Shown one piece after another: positions 19,913 to 28,819 of a stretch of DNA of 64,000 nt. Both the position numbers and the translations under genes were made by a program. Below the pieces are notes generated by a model that made no database searches, was not told where the DNA came from, and was given only the letters and a program-made list of their open reading frames with translations. The stretch is taken from assembly GCA_000004695.1 (NCBI GenBank), contig CM000154.2, positions 1,248,001 through 1,312,000 on the forward strand, given 5' to 3'. The number at the start of each line of letters is the position of its first letter. The stretch's first letter is position 1. Source of the DNA: Dictyostelium discoideum (Eukaryota).

Positions 19913-21691
19913 TTAAAATGATTGTGAAACTAAAAGAGTAGCGGTTGTACTATTAAAACCATTAAAACCAAGTAATGTTTCAAATAATTCAATTTTACTA
20001 GGTGTTTTGTCAGCCTTAATATTAAATATTACTGATAAGGAACTCTCGCCACTTAAAGGATCTGTAAAACCACTTCCAATAGCACCACTTGGACTAAACC
20101 ATGAACGTTTACCTCTTTGTAAGAGCATATATTTAGTGGTACCATCAGTATATGTGATTTTAATAGTATAATCACAACCATTTGCATGACAATACCATGC
20201 ATATTTACTAACATTTGGTCTAATGTCAACCAATTGAGTTGAATTGGTTGGATCAAAAAAGGGCATAAGATTTCCTTTTGATTTAAAAATTGGATAAATT
20301 TGAGAAAGGTTGGCTGGTCCAACAAAACTGTGAGTGATGATGATTGTGTAAACATCTACATTTCTTTCAATTGGAAGACCATCATTTATACCATAGAGAC
20401 CATTGCTCTTGGTGGATGGAGTATAGGTTTCATATTTAAGAGTTGTTGTATTCCACTTTTTGTAACCAGTGGAAAAGGATTTATCATAAATGATTGAATC
20501 TTTGAAATAGTTTTGAATGGTAACTTCTTCATAATCTGCAAACATTGAGTATCTATAGCCTTGGGCTTGGTTACCTGCACCACCTTGCATTACAGATTGT
20601 TTAACGCAATTTTTATTTTGATCCAATATAAAACTTTTATTACAATTTTTATATGCACCAATATTTGATGGAATATTTACACTTAAAAATTCATTATGGT
20701 TCATATCAAAACCCCATTCTGATCCGAGCAAGCTTCCATCTACATATGGATAATTTCCACTCTTGTAACTATCACCGGCATGGGGCAAACCATAGCTATG
20801 ACCGGCCTCGTGGATGAAAATACCAGTATAGGAATAGTCTCCGGTACCCACGGAACCACCTCCTAAGCCTCCCCAAGGATCTGCATATTTACCATTGGCA
20901 CCCAAGTGAATAAGTGGAGCATAGTAAAGAACTGATGATGGACCTTCACCATTTGCACCTCTAATTCCACTCAAAATACCCAAAACGACACTCATAATCT
21001 CATAACCATCTCTTTTTTGGTCAGAGTTGGTTATTCTTAAACCTGGTAAATTATTTCTACCAGCTGGTAAAATTAAGTATGACCAATCAATTCTGGAAAT
21101 TGGGTGATTAAGTGCATTCAATGATGACAAAGACCATTTTTGAATTAATTCATCTGAAACATCTTTAGATATTGAACCAGTTACAGAGAGTGGTTGAGTA
21201 TTGGTATCGTTTGCACCAAATAAATAGAATGGAAGAAGCCACATATTTAAATTTGTTTCATGACCAATGTTTGGGAAAAAGAATTCAGATTTCAAGAGCA
21301 TAGTTGAAAATTGAATTTTCATTTTTGGTTTCATCCAATCTTTTGGAATTCTTATACTATGATGAACAGTGGAATATTTGGTACCATTGGATTCTGTTGG
21401 TGGCAATTTACTTGGATCATTAAGTGTTAATTTTCCCATTAATGAATCATCAACCCAAACTTTAACAGTATAGGAAAGAGTTTGATCTTGAAATTTGGCT
21501 AATAACAAAGACTCTCTGTTTGGAAGAATTTTTAATGTTACAGTATTATTTTTCCAACTTTTACCTTCAATTGGAAGTACATGTGTATTGGCAAATTTAA
21601 TATCACTGACTTGTAATCTTGAAGAACAGACTGCGCAATTAATATTTGTAATTAAATTTAAAAAAACTAATAAAATAATTAATATTTTCAT
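19913..21691 (-). CDS. Secreted zinc metalloprotease of peptidase family M66 (StcE-like), a dictomallein-type protein.
   Basis: It is a single exon with an ATG at 21691. The leader MKILIILLVFLNLITNINC is a signal peptide. The extended zinc-binding motif HEAGHSYGLPH (HExxHxxGxxH) lies in an M66-like context (IFIHEAGHSYGLPHAGDSY). Several named dictomalleins of this family exist in Dictyostelium, as far as I recall. Confidence 0.8.
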   Translation of the reverse strand: MKILIILLVFLNLITNINCAVCSSRLQVSDIKFANTHVLPIEGKSWKNNTVTLKILPNRESLLLAKFQDQTLSYTVKVWVDDSLMGKLTLNDPSKLPPTESNGTKYSTVHHSIRIPKDWMKPKMKIQFSTMLLKSEFFFPNIGHETNLNMWLLPFYLFGANDTNTQPLSVTGSISKDVSDELIQKWSLSSLNALNHPISRIDWSYLILPAGRNNLPGLRITNSDQKRDGYEIMSVVLGILSGIRGANGEGPSSVLYYAPLIHLGANGKYADPWGGLGGGSVGTGDYSYTGIFIHEAGHSYGLPHAGDSYKSGNYPYVDGSLLGSEWGFDMNHNEFLSVNIPSNIGAYKNCNKSFILDQNKNCVKQSVMQGGAGNQAQGYRYSMFADYEEVTIQNYFKDSIIYDKSFSTGYKKWNTTTLKYETYTPSTKSNGLYGINDGLPIERNVDVYTIIITHSFVGPANLSQIYPIFKSKGNLMPFFDPTNSTQLVDIRPNVSKYAWYCHANGCDYTIKITYTDGTTKYMLLQRGKRSWFSPSGAIGSGFTDPLSGESSLSVIFNIKADKTPSKIELFETLLGFNGFNSTTATLLVSQSF

Positions 21692-22723: not shown

Positions 22724-23498
22724 TTATTTCTATTTTTTGTGTGAAAAAATTGATTGTTGTTAGTAAAATGATTAGAAAAAAAATTTTAAAAAAAAAAAAA
22801 ATAAAAACTTACAGAGAAAACTTTTAATTTAAAACTATTTAAATTTCCATTCTTTTTCTTTGAATAAATAAGAAAACCTGCAGCACCAAGGATTAAAACT
22901 CCAGCAACAACACCAATTGCAATACCAGCGATTGCACCACCTGATAATCCAGAATCTTTTGATGGTAATTCCATTGTTGGATCTGCTCCACAATATTTTT
23001 GTTGAAATTCTGTTTCTTTCAAACCTGAATATTTGTTTAATTCAACTATTTTTTTTATTTAAATTTATTTTTATTATTAATATTATTAAGTAAAATTTTA
23101 AAATTTTTTTAACTTTTAAAATGTTATTGTTATTATTATTATTTTTTTTAATTACATTTTGGTGTGTTTTGTCCTGGATTTGACTCAACTTGGTTTGTGT
23201 AAATAACTTCTGGATAATAATTACAAGTATTTAATTCAACAACTTGTAATAAATTAGTCTATAAAAAAAATAATAAAATTAATATCTTTTTTGTTTAGAA
23301 AAAAAAAAAAAAAAAAATTTTATTTACCTTCCAATTATCAAATTTTATTTGGATTTCATTTGTTGGATAGTTTATTTCATAATTATCCATCCAATTTAAA
23401 AATGATTGATAAAGTATACCATTATCTGGTAATGATTGACAATTATTTAAATTAATAAAAAATAATATGAATATAGATAAACAAATAATAAATTTCAT
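22724..23498 (-). CDS. Small type I membrane protein (signal peptide, Cys-containing ectodomain, one TM helix, short KKK tail) in 3-4 exons.
   Basis: Exon 1 is 23498..23328 and ends AAG|GTAAAT. Exon 2 is 23258..23156 and ends with donor GTAATT in phase 1. Exon 3 is 23024..22813 after acceptor ATATTCAG, and ends with donor GTAAGT. A possible 6-nt last exon AAATAA at 22729..22724 follows a TTTTACTAAC branch site. The TM helix is AIAGIAIGVVAGVLILGAAGFLIY followed by SKKKNG. Confidence 0.5.
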
Positions 23499-24146
23499 TT
23501 TTACAAGACTTATTTTAGATAAAAGATTTTTATAAATTAATAAAAAAAAAAAAAATAAAAAAAAAAAATCAACTTTTTTTTTTTTTTTTTTTTTTTAATT
23601 GAATTACATTAATGTTATAAAAAAAAAATGTTCTAAATTTGAAGGGACTGGATGTATAAATATCTACCTTTTTCGAAATAAAAAGTCATTATTTTAAAAA
23701 CTCGAAAACCAAACCGTTAGATATTTTTGATCAAAACAAAATCATTTTAATCGATTTGAGGGGTTTTTATTTTGAAAAAAAAAAAAAAAAAAAAAAATTA
23801 AAAACATTTACCGGTAATAACAACAACCCCACCCATTTTTAATTTTTTTTTCATTTTTTCATTTTTGTTAAAAATTGGGTTCTAAAAAAAAAAAATAAAA
23901 AAATTAAAATATCATTTTTTCCGCATTTTGATTTCATTTTCTTAAATTATTTTATTTTATTTAATTTTGTTTCCATTTTAATTTTTTTTTCATTAATTTT
24001 ATTTTTAATTATTTATTTATTTATTTGTTTATTTATTTATTTATTTATTTTTTATTTATTTATTTATTTATATATTTATTTAATTAATTAATTAATAATT
24101 TATTTATTTGATTTTTAATTTTTTTTTTTTTAAAAAAATTGTTTAG

Positions 24147-24177
<31 letters not shown>

Positions 24178-24180
24178 AAA

Positions 24181-25456
24181 ATGAAATTTTTGGCTAAATT
24201 AATTTTTTTAATTTTAATAAGTTCATGTGTAAATAGCCAATTGACTCCAAATGAAATCACTTTAATTCAAAATTACCATAATCAATGGAGATCCAATCCT
24301 AATGGTCCAACTCCAGTAACACCAATTTCCGGATTAGTCTACAATGAATCAATTGCAACTGCACTTAATTTAAATCTTAGAAAATGTGACGATTCTTACA
24401 GTAATATGTATCAATACGCTCAAAATAGTGAATGGCAAACTTGGGCCACTCCAATTTCATCTTTTAATTTAACTTCCATTCTTGTAAATATTGGAGAATC
24501 TTCAAAATATTATGATTGGTCAATTGCTGGTTGTAATAATATTTCTTCCTCAAATTGTGAAATTTGGACAAATGTAAGTTATTTTTTTATTTTATTTTTT
24601 TTTTTTTTAGATTTATTTAAAATTATTTAAATATTAAAAATAAAATATTAACATATTAATAATAATTTTAAATAGGCTGTCTGGAATAAAAGTAAAAGTT
24701 TTGGATGCGCCAAATCAATTTGTGATGAAACTATTGTATTATCATGCTCCTATTATCCAGCTGGTGGATTTAAAGGTGTCCTCCCATACAAGCCAACCAG
24801 TATAAACCCTTCAGCTTCTACCACTCCAAAAATGCCAAATTTTTCATCTGGAAGTGTTGATTGGAGTGATTATCAAACACCAGTTAGAGACCAAGGTGAA
24901 GTAAGTTTTTAAAAAAAATCTTTTTTTTTTTAATTTTATTATTTATATAATATTCTAAAATTATTATTATTTTTTTAAAAAAAATAGTGCAAATCATGTT
25001 GGGTTTTTGGTTCTTTGGCAGCATTGGAATCAAGATATTTAATTAAAAATGGTGTATCAGAAAAATCAACATTACACTTATCAGCTCAAAATGCAATGAA
25101 TTGTATTACAAGTGGTTGTGAATCTGGTTGGCCAGCAAATGTATTTGATTATTTTGAATCATCAGGAATTGCATTTGAAAAAGATTATCCATATGATGCA
25201 ATTGGTAGTGATAATTGTACTTCATCTTCTAACAAATTTGAATACTCTGGTTATGATTCAGTTGAAAATACTAAAGACTCTTTAATCCAAGAATTAAAGA
25301 ATGGACCTATCACTATTGCTCTTTACTCTGATACTGCATTCCAAAGTTATGCTGGTGGTATTTATGATTCTGTTGAAGAATATAAAGATGTAAACCACAT
25401 TGTATTATTAGTTGGTTATGATAAACCAACAGATTCTTGGAAAATTAAAAATTCGT

Positions 25457-25489
<33 letters not shown>

Positions 25490-25632
25490 AACAAAATAAT
25501 TTTTACTAACTTTTAATAATTATTTATAGACTTGGAACAAAATGGGGAGAATTAGGATATGCTCGTATAACTGCATCAAATGATAAGCTTGGTATCTTAC
25601 TTTATAATTCTTTTTTCCCAAAATTTAAATAA
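24181..25632 (+). CDS. CAP/SCP/PR-1 domain fused to a papain-family (C1A) cysteine protease in 4 exons, with an apparent +1 frameshift in exon 2.
   Basis: The ATG at 24181 opens the signal peptide MKFLAKLIFLILISSCVNSQ; the ORF-track start at 24139 is an artifact of a poly-A tract. Exon 1 is 24181..24573 with donor GTAAGT. Exon 2 is 24675..24900. Exon 3 is 24988..25454 with donor GTAAGT. Exon 4 is 25530..25632, preceded by a TACTAAC branch site. CAP motifs are present: YHNQWR, then EIWTN|AVWNKSKSFGCAKSIC...LSCSYYPAGGFKG. Papain motifs are present: SVDWSDYQTPVRDQGE|CKSCWVFGS, NHIVLLVGY, NSLGTKWGELGYARI. The CAP frame and the papain frame differ by +1 within the sequence GGTGTCCCTCCCATAC at about 24775-24790. 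Confidence 0.55.
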
Positions 25633-25821: not shown

Positions 25822-28436
25822 TTAATTTAATTGAAAATAATCTTGATTATCATCTTCATCCTCTAAAGGTAATTTATCAATTAAAGAACGAATGTAATTT
25901 GAATTTTTTGGATCAAGATCCAAAGCGGTATTTAAAGAATCTAAAGCTTTATCGAGTTCGCCCAATTGTTTATAACATTTACCTAAAAGAATGTAGATTG
26001 GAGTTTCTTTTGGTTCAATTTCTTTAAACTCTAATAATTGATCGATAGCATGATGATATTGTTGATTTGCAAAGAGGAAGGCAGCTAATTTGAATTTTGC
26101 AAAGGTATTCTTTGGTTGAATTTCAATTGAACGATATAGCATATCAATACCGTCTTGAATTTTATTTGGATTATGTTGTAGGGTCATACCTAAATAACAA
26201 CATAACACCGAACTGGACTCATTGATTGATAATGCTTTTCTAAAATGATACTCTGCTAAATTGTATTTCTCTTGACGATAATAAATCAATCCAATGCCAT
26301 AGAAGGCATTGTAATGACGTGGGTCACATCTAATGGCCATTCTAAATGCATTCAATGCTAACTCCAACTCGTCGTTCGCTAAATATTCATGACCACATAA
26401 TGTATAGGCATAGGTCATGTCTGGATCCAATTGAATGGCTCTTCTAAACAATTTGATTGCAGCTTCATGATCACGTTGTAAACTGAAACAATTGCCTACC
26501 ACTACCCAAGAGTAGGGTGACAATCTATCGAATTCTGAATATTTATGTGCAATATAACTTAATTCTGCATCTTCATTCATTTGCCATAACAATGTTGAAT
26601 ATAATTCCATACCCTCTAATCTATATGGTTCCATTTGTGATACCTCTTGAAATATTGATCTTGCCTCTTTATAATCAATTAATTCATGATATGCTTTTGC
26701 TACTTTTGTTAATACCCATCCAGTTCTATATTGTTCTTCTGATAATCTTTTAAATGATTCAATTGCTTCTTTACATAAATATCTTTAATATATTAAAATA
26801 AATTTTTTTTAATTATTAGATTAGATACTTTTTATAAAATTATTTTAAAATATATATATACACATACAAACAAAGTAATCTATAAGAATCTGCTAAAATA
26901 AAAAATAATTCTAATAGTTGAGTTTGACCTTTATGTAATTCAATTAAACCTTCATATAGATCACCACCATTGAAATCCAAAATTGAAGATTCATCAAATT
27001 CATAGAAATTTGGTTGAACTGAATTATCAGTAATATTTAATTGATCATCCTCTTCTAATTCTAATTCGTCAATAGATTTATTATGATGATGGAGATGATG
27101 ATGTTGTTGATAATGATGGTTTTCTTCATCATAATCATCATCACTTAATGAAGATGATAAACTTTTTAAACTAAATTCTTCAGTTTTACCAAAATTAACT
27201 TGTTTCTTTGTTTTTGTTAATAAAACCTCTTTATCTGTAATTGATGTTGTTGTTGTCGTTGTTGTTGTTGTTTGTTGTTTAGTTTGTTGTTGTTGTTGTT
27301 GTTGTTTTGATGTTGATGAAGTAAATCCATGGACATCACTACTTGTTGATGTTGTAAATATTGGACTCTTTAAATCAAGTGACATTGGTGTATCAAATTC
27401 ATTACTCATAGATTTCTTTATCATTTGAGATGGTGGTGCGCTCTTTTTATGTTGATGTGGTTGTTGTTTCTGATGATGATGAACACCTGGAGTTGAAGGT
27501 GTGTATGGAGTTTGACTATTGCTAGAAGGGGGATGTTGTGATCCTTTACTGTCAGGTGTATCCATAACCATTGGTATTGGATCTACAACATTTTGAGAAA
27601 ATCTATTTGAAAGTATTGGTGTTATATGAGAAAGTGGTGTTTGTGGTGTAACGAAATATCGATTATTATATTTTTGTAGATTTTGTTGTGATGGTTGTTG
27701 TGGCTGTTGTTGTTGTTGCTGTTGCTGTTGTTGATTAGTTTGTTGAATAGATGCTTTAAAATTAATTGGTGTAATATGTATTGATGAATCATAAAATGAG
27801 GAAGGTGTTAAACCAACTCTATGGTTTGGATGATATGGCGGTTTTATAAAATTATTTGGTTTAATTGTATTCGTTGTTATATTTGTTGTACCTGTAGCTA
27901 CTGTTGATGTGATAGTTTGTTCATTATTTTTATTACTGCTATTATTATTATTAATATTGTTATTATTGTTGTTATTATTATTATTATTATTATTAACTTT
28001 ATTTTGATTTAAGCTATTTGATAAATATTGTTGAAATTGTTGATGTTGTTGATGTTGTTGTTGATTTAAATGATTAATTTGATGAATTAAATTTGTATGG
28101 GAGAATAAGTCAGAGATATCAATTTCGTCGGGACATATATTACATAATTGCTCAAAAGCTACCCATAGGAATGGATAGGTGTAAACTGATTTTTTCAAGT
28201 ATTTAATTGCTTTCTCTTTTTGATTCTTTCTCTTTGATATTAATCCCATTAAATAATAAACTGATCCAATGCTACAAGGAGAATCAAAGCCATATGATAT
28301 ACTATTTATATCAACTATATCATCAAATTCACAAAGTATATCACTATAAATACCATAATATTCATTTTCATTATTGTTGCTATTGCTATTGTTATTGCTA
28401 TCATTATTTTTATTACTATTGTTACATTTATCTTTG

Positions 28437-28511
<75 letters not shown>

Positions 28512-28819
28512 GGTTGAAAATATTTTTCAAAATATATACAACATTTAATAATTGATGATTCAGCTTCTTGAATATTACCAAGATCATAATTTGATAATGC
28601 TAATAGATATAGGTTCTTTATCATTGTAATTTGAGGATGTTGTTGAAGTATTAATAAACATTGATTTATTTTACCCATTTGATAATAGATTTGAGCTATT
28701 TTAAAAAGGTTATCTTCATTGGCTGTTGATGCATATAATCTCTCTGAAAGAAATAATGCATTCTTTATTAATCCACAATGTATTGATTCATCAATACTTT
28801 GAATCATTATTTCTTCCAT
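25822..28819 (-). CDS. anapc3: CDC27/APC3 (anaphase-promoting complex subunit 3), about 970 aa in 2 exons.
   Basis: Exon 1 is 28819..26868 with an ATG at 28819 and donor GTATGTGTATAT. The intron is about 85 nt. Exon 2 is 26782..25822. The phases are consistent (2/1). The junction reads YRLLCL-YLCKEAIESFKRL...QYRTGWVLTKVAKAYHEL, followed by EPYRLEGMELYSTLLW...GNCFSLQRDHEAAIKLFRRAIQLDP...RHYNAFYGIGLIYYRQEKY. This matches CDC27 almost motif for motif. The internal Asn/Gln-rich insert is typical for Dictyostelium. Confidence 0.85.

What the first reader, a model, noticed from the sequence alone, without database searches (positions are those of the whole stretch)
24181..25632. Fusion gene of a CAP/PR-1 domain and a papain-family cysteine protease, with an apparent +1 frameshift in a C-tract
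The first two exons encode a textbook CAP/SCP domain (YHNQWR; EIWTN-AVWNKSKSFGCAKSIC; LSCSYYPAGGFKG). The same transcript then continues in the +1 frame into a complete C1A protease (SVDW..TPVRDQGE-CKSCW; NHIVLLVGY; NSLGTKWGELGY). It has no I29 propeptide; a Ser/Thr/Pro linker takes its place. The two frames can only be joined by a 1-nt slip inside GGTGTCCCTCCCATAC at about 24775-24790. In the CAP frame a TGA follows 27 codons later. There are three possibilities: a sequencing or assembly error, a recent pseudogenising indel, or a genuinely separate CAP protein followed by a 5'-truncated protease. I do not recall a CAP-protease architecture with the CAP domain in the position of the propeptide.
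Basis: partly seen in the sequence, partly recalled or inferred. Interest (0 to 1): 0.6.

Follow-up and report, generated by a model that had tools for sequence, protein, structure and literature searches.

The report
Intact CAP–papain protease, propeptide next door
The flagged gene is an intact, already annotated Dictyostelium gene for a secreted CAP-domain/papain-like protease with no frameshift, and the propeptide it lacks is encoded by the neighbouring, oppositely oriented gene as a small membrane protein, a pairing kept in every social-amoeba locus examined.

Summary
The CAP + C1A fusion is real. The frameshift is not. The real sequence at 24775 has one C fewer, so the CAP end, the linker and the protease start lie in one frame inside exon 2.

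Four exons give a 395-aa ORF identical to D. discoideum AX4 DDB_G0288221 (UniProt Q54J84). This is a paralogue of gmsA. The CAP:C1A order in amoebozoans is already in databases and is mentioned in PMC10084794. The gene is under purifying selection (dN/dS 0.12-0.15). Q204, C210, H343 and N361 are all present. There is no I29 propeptide in cis.

One result goes beyond the finding. Directly upstream, 682 bp away and on the other strand, is a 170-aa gene at 22724-23498. It encodes a signal peptide, an Inhibitor_I29 domain and a transmembrane helix. This head-to-head pair occurs in all 11 dictyostelid loci examined, although the flanking genes differ. The two families have co-diverged (Mantel r = 0.90).

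My best reading is a split zymogen, with the propeptide supplied in trans as a membrane-anchored chaperone, inhibitor or tether. The linkage is shown. The interaction is inferred. I found no paper describing it.

The parts
24181..25632 (+). Complete coding region (ATG to TAA) of the CAP:C1A gene. It equals D. discoideum AX4 DDB_G0288221 / XP_636852.1 / Q54J84, 395 aa.
   Evidence: Spliced ORF of 1188 nt with no stop or frame change. Exact-sequence match in the protein collection.
24181..24573 (+). Exon 1 (aa 1-131): signal peptide and most of the CAP domain.
   Evidence: Intron 1 (24574-24675) is GTAAGT..ATAG, 102 nt, 5% GC. The intron position is kept in D. citrinum, D. firmibasis and a second D. 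discoideum strain.
24676..24900 (+). Exon 2 (aa 132-206): end of the CAP domain, the linker and the start of the peptidase unit, all in one frame within one exon.
   Evidence: Three-frame translation. Frames +1 and +2 are closed.
24988..25454 (+). Exon 3 (aa 207-362, split codon): bulk of the C1A peptidase unit.
   Evidence: Intron 2 is 24901-24987 (87 nt, 6% GC).
25530..25632 (+). Exon 4 (aa 362-395 plus TAA).
   Evidence: Intron 3 is 25455-25529 (75 nt, 8% GC).
24181..24237 (+). Predicted signal peptide, MKFLAKLIFLILISSCVNS (aa 1-19).
   Evidence: It is the only hydrophobic segment in the protein (Kyte-Doolittle). The cleavage site is inferred, not predicted with a dedicated tool.
24238..24789 (+). 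CAP/PR-1 domain, aa 20-169 (includes intron 1). It ends CSYYPAGGFKGVLPY.
24775..24789 (+). Alleged frameshift site. The real sequence GGTGTCCTCCCATAC encodes G165-V-L-P-Y169.
Evidence: The residues are conserved in all homologues.
24790..24849 (+). Ser/Thr/Pro-rich linker KPTSINPSASTTPKMPNFSS (aa 170-189).
   Evidence: AlphaFold confidence is low here. The equivalent stretch in GmsA-type proteins is a ~75-aa PTTPAPTTPK repeat.
24850..25629 (+). Papain-family (C1A) peptidase unit, aa 190-395 (includes introns 2 and 3). It corresponds to the mature enzyme only.
24892..24894 (+). Gln204, the oxyanion-hole Gln (papain Gln19).
   Evidence: Invariant in alignment A1. Coordinates.
24997..24999 (+). 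Cys210, the catalytic cysteine (papain Cys25), in CKSCW.
   Evidence: Invariant in A1. Coordinates.
25396..25398 (+). His343, the catalytic histidine (papain His159), in NHIVLLVGY.
   Evidence: Invariant in A1. Coordinates.
25450..25452 (+). Asn361 (papain Asn175), in KNSLG.
   Evidence: Invariant in A1. Coordinates.
23499..24180 (.). Shared 682-bp intergenic region between the two divergent start codons. It is a candidate bidirectional promoter.
   Evidence: Geometry. The same head-to-head spacing of 258-891 bp is seen in ten other loci.
23645..23783 (.). Conserved non-coding block inside the intergenic region.
   Evidence: 65-80% of columns are invariant across four sequences from three species. 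GC is 0.20-0.28 against 0.03-0.15 around it. There is no Rfam match.
22724..23498 (-). Neighbouring gene for a 170-aa type-I membrane protein: signal peptide, Inhibitor_I29 domain, TM helix and a short tail. Exons are 23498-23328, 23258-23156, 23045-22813 and 22729-22724.
   Evidence: Gene model. The same length (170 aa) is called in another D. discoideum strain. PF08246 scores 37.5 bits against cut-off 24.4. dN/dS is 0.14-0.17.
23005..23402 (-). I29 (cathepsin propeptide-like) domain, aa 33-105 (includes two introns). It has an ERFNIN-type helix E48-x3-K-x3-W-x2-N-x3-V-x3-N67 and a GNFD-type NKYSG motif.
   Evidence: A profile of the neighbour family hits the N-terminal propeptides of canonical procathepsins in two blocks, with an insertion of about 35 aa between them.
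22864..22941 (-). Transmembrane helix GGAIAGIAIGVVAGVLILGAAGFLIY (aa 127-152), followed by KKK.
   Evidence: Hydrophobicity peak of 2.35. The motif LS(T/G)GAIxGIxxG is conserved in all partners.

Best explanation
The locus holds an intact, functional, already annotated gene, D. discoideum DDB_G0288221. It is a paralogue of gmsA. The product is a secreted two-module protein. It has a signal peptide, a divergent CAP/PR-1 domain, a short Ser/Thr/Pro linker and a cathepsin-L-like C1A peptidase unit with a complete Gln/Cys/His/Asn active site. It has no propeptide of its own. There is no frameshift.

The I29 propeptide that such enzymes normally carry in cis is encoded by the adjacent gene, which is transcribed in the opposite direction. 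That gene makes a type-I membrane protein whose I29 domain faces the lumen or the outside. This is the same compartment as the protease.

Proposed mechanism (inferred):
1. Both genes are driven from the shared ~0.7-kb intergenic region.
2. The membrane-anchored I29 domain binds the protease unit in trans in the secretory pathway.
3. There it does what a cis-propeptide does: it assists folding and blocks the active-site cleft. It also tethers the latent enzyme to the membrane.
4. Low pH or cleavage of the I29 partner releases or activates the enzyme.
5. The CAP domain is an accessory binding or targeting module on a flexible stalk, not a propeptide substitute.

Shown: gene structure, identity, domains, catalytic residues, purifying selection, conserved head-to-head linkage, co-divergence and compatible topology.

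Inferred: co-expression, physical binding, inhibition or chaperoning, and the role of the CAP domain.
For: Gene and frame:
- Uninterrupted 395-aa ORF, identical to XP_636852.1.
- Three intron positions are conserved in orthologues.
- dN/dS is 0.12-0.15 overall: CAP 0.16-0.20, C1 0.07-0.10.

Domains and folds:
- Pfam hits for both domains.
- AlphaFold model with pLDDT 89.

No cis-propeptide:
- No I29 hit in the protein, and the PDB alignment starts at the mature N-terminus.
- The nearest non-family relatives are I29-bearing cathepsin-L-like enzymes.

The partner gene:
- PF08246 scores above its cut-off, and the protein has a signal peptide and a TM helix.
- Its ERFNIN and GNFD blocks match canonical propeptides in a reciprocal profile search.

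Linkage:
- The I29 gene lies head-to-head with a CAP:C1A gene in 11 of 11 loci. Eight were reached from the protease side: the window, L010, L001, L002, L003 (gmsA), L004, L005 and L006.
- Three were reached reciprocally from the I29 side: two in Heterostelium and one in Acytostelium.
- The outer flanking genes differ between loci (same calls).
- Pairwise distances in the two families correlate: Mantel r = 0.90, with 0 of 10000 permutations reaching it. Both members of the DDB_G0288221 pair sit on long branches.
- A conserved non-coding block lies in the shared intergenic region.

Precedent: free I29 proteins (CTLA-2α, crammer, BCPI) inhibit and stabilise cathepsin L in trans (PMC4089206).
Against: - There is no expression, interaction or activity data for either gene. 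Literature searches on the gene identifiers found nothing.
- The I29 domain carries a ~35-aa insertion relative to canonical propeptides.
- The GNFD Asp is Gly in the window's copy. Binding competence is therefore unproven.
- Conserved linkage could reflect a shared promoter alone.
- GmsA knock-down gave no essential mating phenotype (PMC4910948). The biological role of the family remains open.
- The active-site neighbourhood differs from the consensus: CKSCW instead of CGSCW, and NSLG instead of NSWG.
Confidence: 0.6

Rival explanations
1. The CAP domain itself replaces the propeptide. It would fold back on the peptidase unit in cis and act as an intramolecular chaperone and/or inhibitor. It would then be removed on activation.
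For: The CAP domain occupies the N-terminal position of the propeptide. Its position is conserved in all amoebozoan members. The CAP C-terminus keeps the CNYxPxGNxxxxxPY-type motif. In plant PR-1 a papain-like protease cuts at that motif (PMC10403534), so autoprocessing there is conceivable.
Against: Linker length and composition vary greatly, from 20 aa here to ~75 aa in GmsA and ~160 aa of PT repeats in P0079. That fits independent modules on a stalk. AlphaFold gives high per-domain confidence but pTM of only 0.63 and a low-confidence linker, so there is no confident docking. In Aphanomyces the CAP domain is C-terminal to the C1A unit (PMC10084794). A genuine I29 domain is conserved next door.
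Confidence: 0.13
2. The two genes are linked only by history or a shared promoter. The CAP:C1A enzyme folds and is active without any propeptide. The membrane I29 protein regulates other (canonical) cathepsins or has a different role.
For: Interaction has not been shown. Free I29 inhibitors elsewhere act on proteases that keep their own propeptides (PMC4089206). The I29 domain is divergent, with an insertion.
Against: The pair survived in every lineage and after every duplication examined, while all other neighbours were reshuffled. The two families co-diverged, including parallel acceleration in the DDB_G0288221 pair. The partner supplies exactly the domain that this protease subfamily has lost. 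The topologies place both in the same compartment. Every dictyostelid I29-only protein recovered and checked sits beside a CAP:C1A gene.
Confidence: 0.22
3. The gene is a frameshifted gene. This could be a sequencing or assembly error, a recent pseudogene, programmed +1 frameshifting, or two separate genes (a CAP protein plus a 5'-truncated protease).
For: None was found.
Against: The quoted 16-mer is absent. The real sequence is in frame. The product is identical to the annotated AX4 protein. Orthologues of 394-396 aa are 84-99% identical over their full length. dN/dS is 0.07-0.15 on both sides of the site. The CAP end and the protease start share one exon.
Confidence: 0.01

Closest known systems
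[quoted passage not shown]
   Same: It has the same architecture: signal peptide, CAP, linker and C1A without I29. The alignment is collinear, with 59% identity in the best local BLASTP alignment (52% of the query) and 56% over the full alignment. It has the same head-to-head I29-TM neighbour.
   Different: GmsA has a ~75-aa PTTPAPTTPK repeat linker, CGSCW and NSWG motifs, and a partner with a long cytoplasmic tail ending HRSITARAFYS. The window's pair has a 20-aa linker, CKSCW and NSLG, and a partner with a short tail. GmsA is reported as gamete- and mating-type-specific but not essential for mating (PMC4910948). Nothing is published on DDB_G0288221.
Cathepsin-L-like (ERFNIN-type) papain-family zymogens, for example procathepsin L/K and procaricain
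   Same: The peptidase unit has the same fold and catalytic residues. The neighbour's domain carries the ERFNIN/GNFD propeptide signature.
   Different: In those zymogens the I29 propeptide is N-terminal in the same polypeptide and is cut off on activation. Here it lies on a separate, membrane-anchored polypeptide from a separate gene, and a CAP domain occupies the N-terminus.
Free propeptide-like inhibitors of MEROPS family I29 (mouse CTLA-2α/β, Drosophila crammer, Bombyx BCPI)
   Same: They are stand-alone I29 domains without a peptidase unit. They act in trans on cathepsin-L-like enzymes and can stabilise them (PMC4089206).
   Different: Those proteins are small and soluble, and their target proteases keep their own propeptides. 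The dictyostelid proteins have a TM anchor and a cytoplasmic tail. They carry a ~35-aa insertion. They are genomically paired with a propeptide-less protease.
Modular C1A:CAP papain-like proteases of the oomycete Aphanomyces euteiches (PMC10084794)
   Same: They combine a C1A peptidase and a CAP domain in one secreted protein. That paper notes the reverse order, CAP:C1A, in amoebozoans.
   Different: The domain order is opposite, with CAP at the C-terminus. That paper interprets the non-catalytic domains as binding modules. It does not report a separate I29 partner.
Stand-alone prodomain-like inhibitors of other protease clans, for example the Plasmodium SUB1 propeptide-like protein (PMC6993865) and, from my own knowledge and not checked here, Streptococcus Spi next to SpeB
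   Same: The principle is the same: a homologue of the protease's own prodomain is encoded separately and regulates the enzyme in trans.
   Different: The protease families differ (S8, C10). In those cases the protease still has its own prodomain.

Membership tests
Papain family, MEROPS C1A (Pfam PF00112) | Sequence match above the curated Pfam threshold | tested here: met
   159.5 bits against cut-off 20.7, aa 191-384.
Papain family, MEROPS C1A (Pfam PF00112) | Catalytic Cys25/His159 dyad plus Gln19 and Asn175 | tested here: met
   Q204, C210, H343 and N361 are present and invariant in nine family members. They align with cathepsin K and bromelain.
Papain family, MEROPS C1A (Pfam PF00112) | Papain fold (L and R domains) | tested here: met
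Papain family, MEROPS C1A (Pfam PF00112) | N-terminal I29 propeptide in the same polypeptide (typical of the cathepsin-L-like subfamily) | tested here: not met
   No PF08246 hit. The alignment to solved structures begins at mature residue 4-5. Only 20 linker residues precede the unit.
Papain family, MEROPS C1A (Pfam PF00112) | Peptidase activity | not testable with these tools
   This needs recombinant enzyme.
CAP / SCP / PR-1 superfamily (Pfam PF00188) | Sequence match above the curated threshold | tested here: met
   31.7 bits against cut-off 21.1. The family profile matches PR-1 (E = 6e-13), Na-ASP-1, SmVAL4 and GLIPR1.
CAP / SCP / PR-1 superfamily (Pfam PF00188) | α-β-α sandwich fold | tested here: met
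CAP / SCP / PR-1 superfamily (Pfam PF00188) | Conserved His/Glu/Glu/His 'CAP tetrad' | tested here: not met
   In the alignment to PR-1, the His of HYTQ is Ile/Leu (CEIWTN) and the first His is Asn/Thr. Glu84 is kept. The second Glu is not conserved in the family.
GmsA-type amoebozoan CAP:C1A proteins | Collinear signal-CAP-linker-C1A architecture without I29 | tested here: met
   More than 25 representatives span both halves of the profile.
GmsA-type amoebozoan CAP:C1A proteins | Divergent I29-TM neighbour gene (a feature defined here) | tested here: met
   Window. Ten other loci.
GmsA-type amoebozoan CAP:C1A proteins | Gamete- and mating-type-specific expression | not testable with these tools
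   No expression data were reachable.
MEROPS I29 free propeptide-like inhibitors (applied to the neighbour gene) | Inhibitor_I29 domain above threshold, with ERFNIN/GNFD-type motifs and no peptidase unit | tested here: met
   PF08246 at 37.5 bits against cut-off 24.4. E-x3-K-x3-W-x2-N-x3-[IV]-x3-N and N-x-[FY]-x-[DG]. Reciprocal profile hits to procathepsin propeptides.
MEROPS I29 free propeptide-like inhibitors (applied to the neighbour gene) | Small soluble protein | tested here: not met
   A C-terminal TM helix and cytoplasmic tail are present in all ten partners.
MEROPS I29 free propeptide-like inhibitors (applied to the neighbour gene) | Inhibits a C1A peptidase | not testable with these tools
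   This needs a biochemical assay or at least a complex model.
Frameshifted gene / programmed +1 frameshift / pseudogene | Two reading frames are needed to encode the product, or there is an in-frame stop | tested here: not met
   There is a single open frame. The quoted slippery string is absent. Purifying selection acts on both sides.

The most novel reading that the evidence does not exclude
This would be a 'split zymogen'. In the GmsA-type proteases of social amoebae, the papain-family propeptide would have been moved off the enzyme onto a separate type-I membrane protein. That protein would be co-expressed from a bidirectional promoter. It would fold, silence and tether the secreted CAP-protease at the membrane (for GmsA, possibly the gamete surface) until release. 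The arrangement would have been kept as a unit across all the dictyostelid lineages examined and duplicated as a unit.
Probability: 0.5. Interest if true: 0.65.

Novelty: new variant of a known kind. Interest (0 to 1): 0.5.

Why it matters
As flagged, the finding is ordinary. It is an intact, annotated gene, and the 'frameshift' is a reading error, so nothing needs resequencing.

The context is more interesting. Cathepsin-L-like enzymes are generally held to need their I29 propeptide for folding and latency (textbook knowledge, not tested here). This is a whole eukaryotic family that has lost the propeptide in cis. It keeps a membrane-anchored copy as an obligate genomic neighbour.

If the two products interact, three things follow:
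- It would be a natural example of a trans-encoded propeptide for a papain-like protease.
- It would show a simple way to hold a soluble protease latent at a membrane.
- It would give a concrete, testable handle on the unexplained role of GmsA in Dictyostelium sexual development.

It would also correct the annotation of about ten 'hypothetical' I29 proteins and of one truncated Acytostelium gene model.

Tried and rejected
- Frameshift, pseudogene or two genes: rejected directly from the sequence and from identity to the annotated protein.
- Extra copies of the gene in the window: tblastn found none.
- First AlphaFold run with nine sequences: unusable, pLDDT 50. The run was repeated with 56 sequences.
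- CAP-only profile search in the word-indexed database: it returned only two stand-alone 166-aa CAP proteins and, oddly, not the family itself. The exhaustive representative search was used instead.
- AFDB Foldseek library: not available.
I checked the model indirectly through another D. discoideum strain, where the gene is called at the same 170 aa.
- Literature on DDB_G0288221, DDB_G0286015, or Dictyostelium with I29: nothing. The one paper tried had no supplements held as text.
- Rfam and tRNA scans of the locus: nothing.
- CAPE/XCP1 analogy (a PLCP cutting the CAP C-terminus): kept only as a side note. The plant site needs Asp and this protein has Tyr.
- Conserved Cys as in CTLA-2α: the Cys in KYCGAD occurs in the window's copy and its D. 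citrinum and D. firmibasis orthologues. It is Asn in the D. dimigraforme orthologue and Ala/Gly/Thr in the gmsA-type partners. It is therefore not a family feature.
Full report
**1. What is in the sequence**

The window is AT-rich (24% GC) and is Dictyostelium discoideum DNA. Between 24181 and 25632 on the + strand there are four exons: 24181-24573, 24676-24900, 24988-25454 and 25530-25632. They are separated by GT..AG introns of 102, 87 and 75 nt with 5-8% GC. Joined, they give an uninterrupted 1188-nt ORF of 395 codons.

The product is identical, residue for residue, to XP_636852.1 / EAL63341.1 / UniProt Q54J84. This is 'hypothetical protein DDB_G0288221' of D. discoideum AX4.

**2. The frameshift is a reading error**

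The real sequence at 24775 is GGTGTCCTCCCATAC, one C fewer.

Exon 2 therefore reads in one frame...SCSYYPAGGFKGVLPY-KPTSINPSASTTPKMPNFSS-GSVDWSDYQTPVRDQGE. The end of the CAP domain, the linker and the start of the protease lie in the same exon and the same frame.

Three further results agree:
- Orthologues in D. cf. discoideum, D. citrinum, D. firmibasis and D. dimigraforme are 394-396 aa and 84-99% identical over 100% of the length.
- G161, G162, G165, P168 and Y169, which span the alleged slip site, are invariant in nine homologues.
- The three intron positions are the same in the orthologues.

Nei-Gojobori dN/dS between D. discoideum, D. citrinum and D. firmibasis is 0.12-0.15 overall:

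| Region | dN/dS |
|---|---|
| CAP | 0.16-0.20 |
| Linker | 0.07-0.15 |
| C1 | 0.07-0.10 |

. Sequencing error, pseudogene and 'two genes' can all be dismissed.

**3. Domains**

Pfam gives CAP (PF00188) at aa 31-157 with 31.7 bits against a cut-off of 21.1. It gives Peptidase_C1 (PF00112) at aa 191-384 with 159.5 bits. There is no Inhibitor_I29 hit.

The peptidase part:
- Against solved structures it aligns from residue 4-5 of mature cathepsin K and bromelain. The enzyme unit is complete and the entire propeptide is absent.
- Gln204, Cys210, His343 and Asn361 are present and invariant in the family.

The structure model:
- An AlphaFold model built on 56 sequences has mean pLDDT 89.
- Its pTM is only 0.63, and the linker has low confidence.

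The CAP domain:
- It is complete up to the PR-1 C-terminus (CSYYPAGGFKGVLPY against CNYAPPGNYIGQRPY).
- It is divergent, and both histidines of the CAP tetrad are replaced.

The only strongly hydrophobic segment is the N-terminal signal sequence.

**4. The architecture is not new**

The closest paralogue is GmsA (DDB_G0286015, 'gamete and mating-type specific protein A'). It has the same architecture with a much longer PT-repeat linker.

An exhaustive profile search of 1.8 billion representatives found more than 25 proteins covering both halves. Those I could name are all dictyostelids: Dictyostelium, Polysphondylium, Cavenderia, Heterostelium, Acytostelium, Tieghemostelium and Synstelium. A few are unnamed metagenome or transcriptome sequences.

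PMC10084794 states that CAP:C1A proteins occur in amoebozoan slime moulds (Planoprotostelium, D. purpureum, P. pallidum). It also reports the reverse order, C1A:CAP, in Aphanomyces. PMC4910948, citing Muramoto et al. 2003 and 2005, describes gmsA as gamete- and sex-specific but not essential for mating. I found no publication on DDB_G0288221 itself.

**5. Where the propeptide went**

When I fetched orthologous loci, the gene immediately upstream was annotated with PF08246 (Inhibitor_I29). It lay on the opposite strand.

In the window this gene is at 22724-23498 (−). Its exons are 23498-23328, 23258-23156, 23045-22813 and 22729-22724. It encodes 170 aa:
- a signal peptide;
- an I29 domain at aa 33-105 (37.5 bits against cut-off 24.4);
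- an ERFNIN-type helix (E48-x3-K-x3-W-x2-N-x3-V-x3-N67);
- a GNFD-type strand (ELNKYSG...EF);
- then ...YCGAD..., a transmembrane helix at aa 127-152, a KKK stop-transfer and a short tail.

Another D. discoideum strain has the gene called at the same 170 aa. Its dN/dS is 0.14-0.17.

A profile of this family hits the N-terminal propeptides of ordinary procathepsins in two blocks. This shows homology and also a ~35-aa insertion between the ERFNIN helix and the GNFD strand.

The I29 domain is lumenal or extracellular. That is the same compartment as the secreted protease.

**6. The pair is conserved as a unit**

Starting from the protease, the same head-to-head arrangement occurs at seven further loci:
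- the second D. discoideum strain, D. citrinum and D. firmibasis;
- the D. discoideum gmsA locus;
- D. purpureum, P. violaceum and C. fasciculata.

Starting instead from the I29 protein, the last protein search returned only dictyostelid, I29-only proteins. The three new ones (two from Heterostelium album, one from Acytostelium subglobosum) each sit head-to-head with a CAP:C1A gene. The Acytostelium model is merely truncated at its 5' end.

That makes 11 of 11 loci, with ATG-to-ATG gaps of 258-891 bp. The outer flanking genes are different at each non-orthologous locus:

| Locus | Outer flanking genes |
|---|---|
| Window | Peptidase_M66 and ANAPC3 |
| D. purpureum | EF1_GNE and FtsJ |
| P. 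violaceum | ABC2 and PEX1 |
| C. fasciculata | PGP phosphatase and RrnaAD |

.

Pairwise distances in the two families are strongly correlated (Mantel r = 0.90, with 0 of 10000 permutations reaching it). The main clades agree. Both members of the DDB_G0288221 pair sit on long branches.

The shared intergenic region contains a block at about 23645-23783 that is far better conserved than its surroundings. It has no Rfam match.

**7. Mechanism**

These points are shown:
- an intact secreted CAP:C1A protease without a cis-propeptide;
- a membrane-anchored I29 protein encoded divergently next to it;
- both genes under purifying selection;
- linkage and co-divergence across the dictyostelid loci examined.

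The following is inferred from the established behaviour of I29 propeptides and of free I29 inhibitors, which inhibit and stabilise cathepsin L in trans (PMC4089206):
1. The two genes are co-expressed.
2. The I29 ectodomain binds the protease unit in the secretory pathway.
3. It acts as folding aid, latency factor and membrane tether.
4. The CAP domain is an accessory binding module on a flexible, probably O-glycosylated, stalk.

I put about 0.97 on the gene call and about 0.5-0.6 on the trans-propeptide mechanism.

Two rivals remain:
- CAP acts as a cis-propeptide surrogate (about 0.13). The variable linker, the lack of confident docking, the C-terminal CAP in Aphanomyces and the presence of a real I29 next door all argue against it.
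- Linkage exists without functional interaction (about 0.22).

**8. Verdict**

The finding as written is an ordinary, annotated gene plus a misread base. Followed outward, it leads to an apparently undescribed, strongly conserved gene pair that looks like a split papain-family zymogen. This is a new variant of known kinds (cis-propeptide zymogens and free I29 inhibitors). It is testable with one complex prediction and standard Dictyostelium genetics.

Noticed in passing
window 23645-23783: A conserved non-coding block lies in the shared intergenic region. 65-80% of columns are invariant across D. discoideum (two strains), D. citrinum and D. firmibasis. It is relatively GC-rich and has no Rfam match. 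It is a candidate shared regulatory element.
   Followed up: partly
L003-L009 I29 partner proteins; window 22724-22863: GmsA-type I29 partners share a conserved cytoplasmic C-terminal motif, GINVFD..NP[RH]HSITAR. The window's partner has lost it and has only an 18-aa tail. Its last exon is 6 nt (Lys plus stop), where the orthologues end KKGH.
   Followed up: partly
window 19913-21691 (-): A Peptidase_M66 (dictomallein-like) gene of 592 aa lies directly beyond the I29 gene. The same order, M66 - I29 - CAP:C1A, is seen in D. citrinum, D. firmibasis and another D. discoideum strain. The three adjacent genes all encode products with a hydrophobic N-terminal (signal-like) sequence and a protease-related domain.
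   Followed up: partly
window 25822-28819 (-): The downstream neighbour is a TPR protein with ANAPC3 domains (a Cdc27/APC3-like subunit) in at least two exons. It converges on the 3' end of the CAP:C1A gene with about 190 bp between the stop codons.
   Followed up: partly
alignment A1, window aa 330-345 and 378-386: The two cysteines of the third papain disulfide (Cys153-Cys200) are both present in the P. violaceum and C. fasciculata members. Both are absent in all the Dictyostelium-genus members aligned. This is a paired loss.
   Followed up: no
window 24745-24789: The CAP domain ends in CSYYPAGGFKGVLPY. This is the CNYxPxGNxxxxxPY-type motif from which plant PR-1 releases CAPE peptides, and in Arabidopsis the cut is made by a papain-like protease, XCP1 (PMC10403534). 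Here the motif is directly followed by such a protease, but without the Asp that XCP1 needs.
   Followed up: no
protein P0085 (ENA metagenome contig, 2254 aa): This protein has ten tandem CAP domains of the same divergent type as in this family. Its organism is unknown.
   Followed up: no
L009 8328-9625 (-): The Acytostelium subglobosum CAP:C1A gene model (311 aa, 'partial') is truncated at its 5' end. tblastn with the Heterostelium protein extends the CAP domain to about 9625.
   Followed up: partly
window 24000-24080 and 24140-24175: A long (TTTA)n-like microsatellite and an A28 tract lie just upstream of the CAP:C1A start codon. The microsatellite is largely missing from the D. firmibasis sequence in the alignment.
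   Followed up: no
(tool behaviour): The CAP-only profile search in the word-indexed protein database did not return the dictyostelid CAP:C1A proteins from which the profile was built. It returned only two stand-alone CAP proteins. I have no explanation.
   Followed up: no
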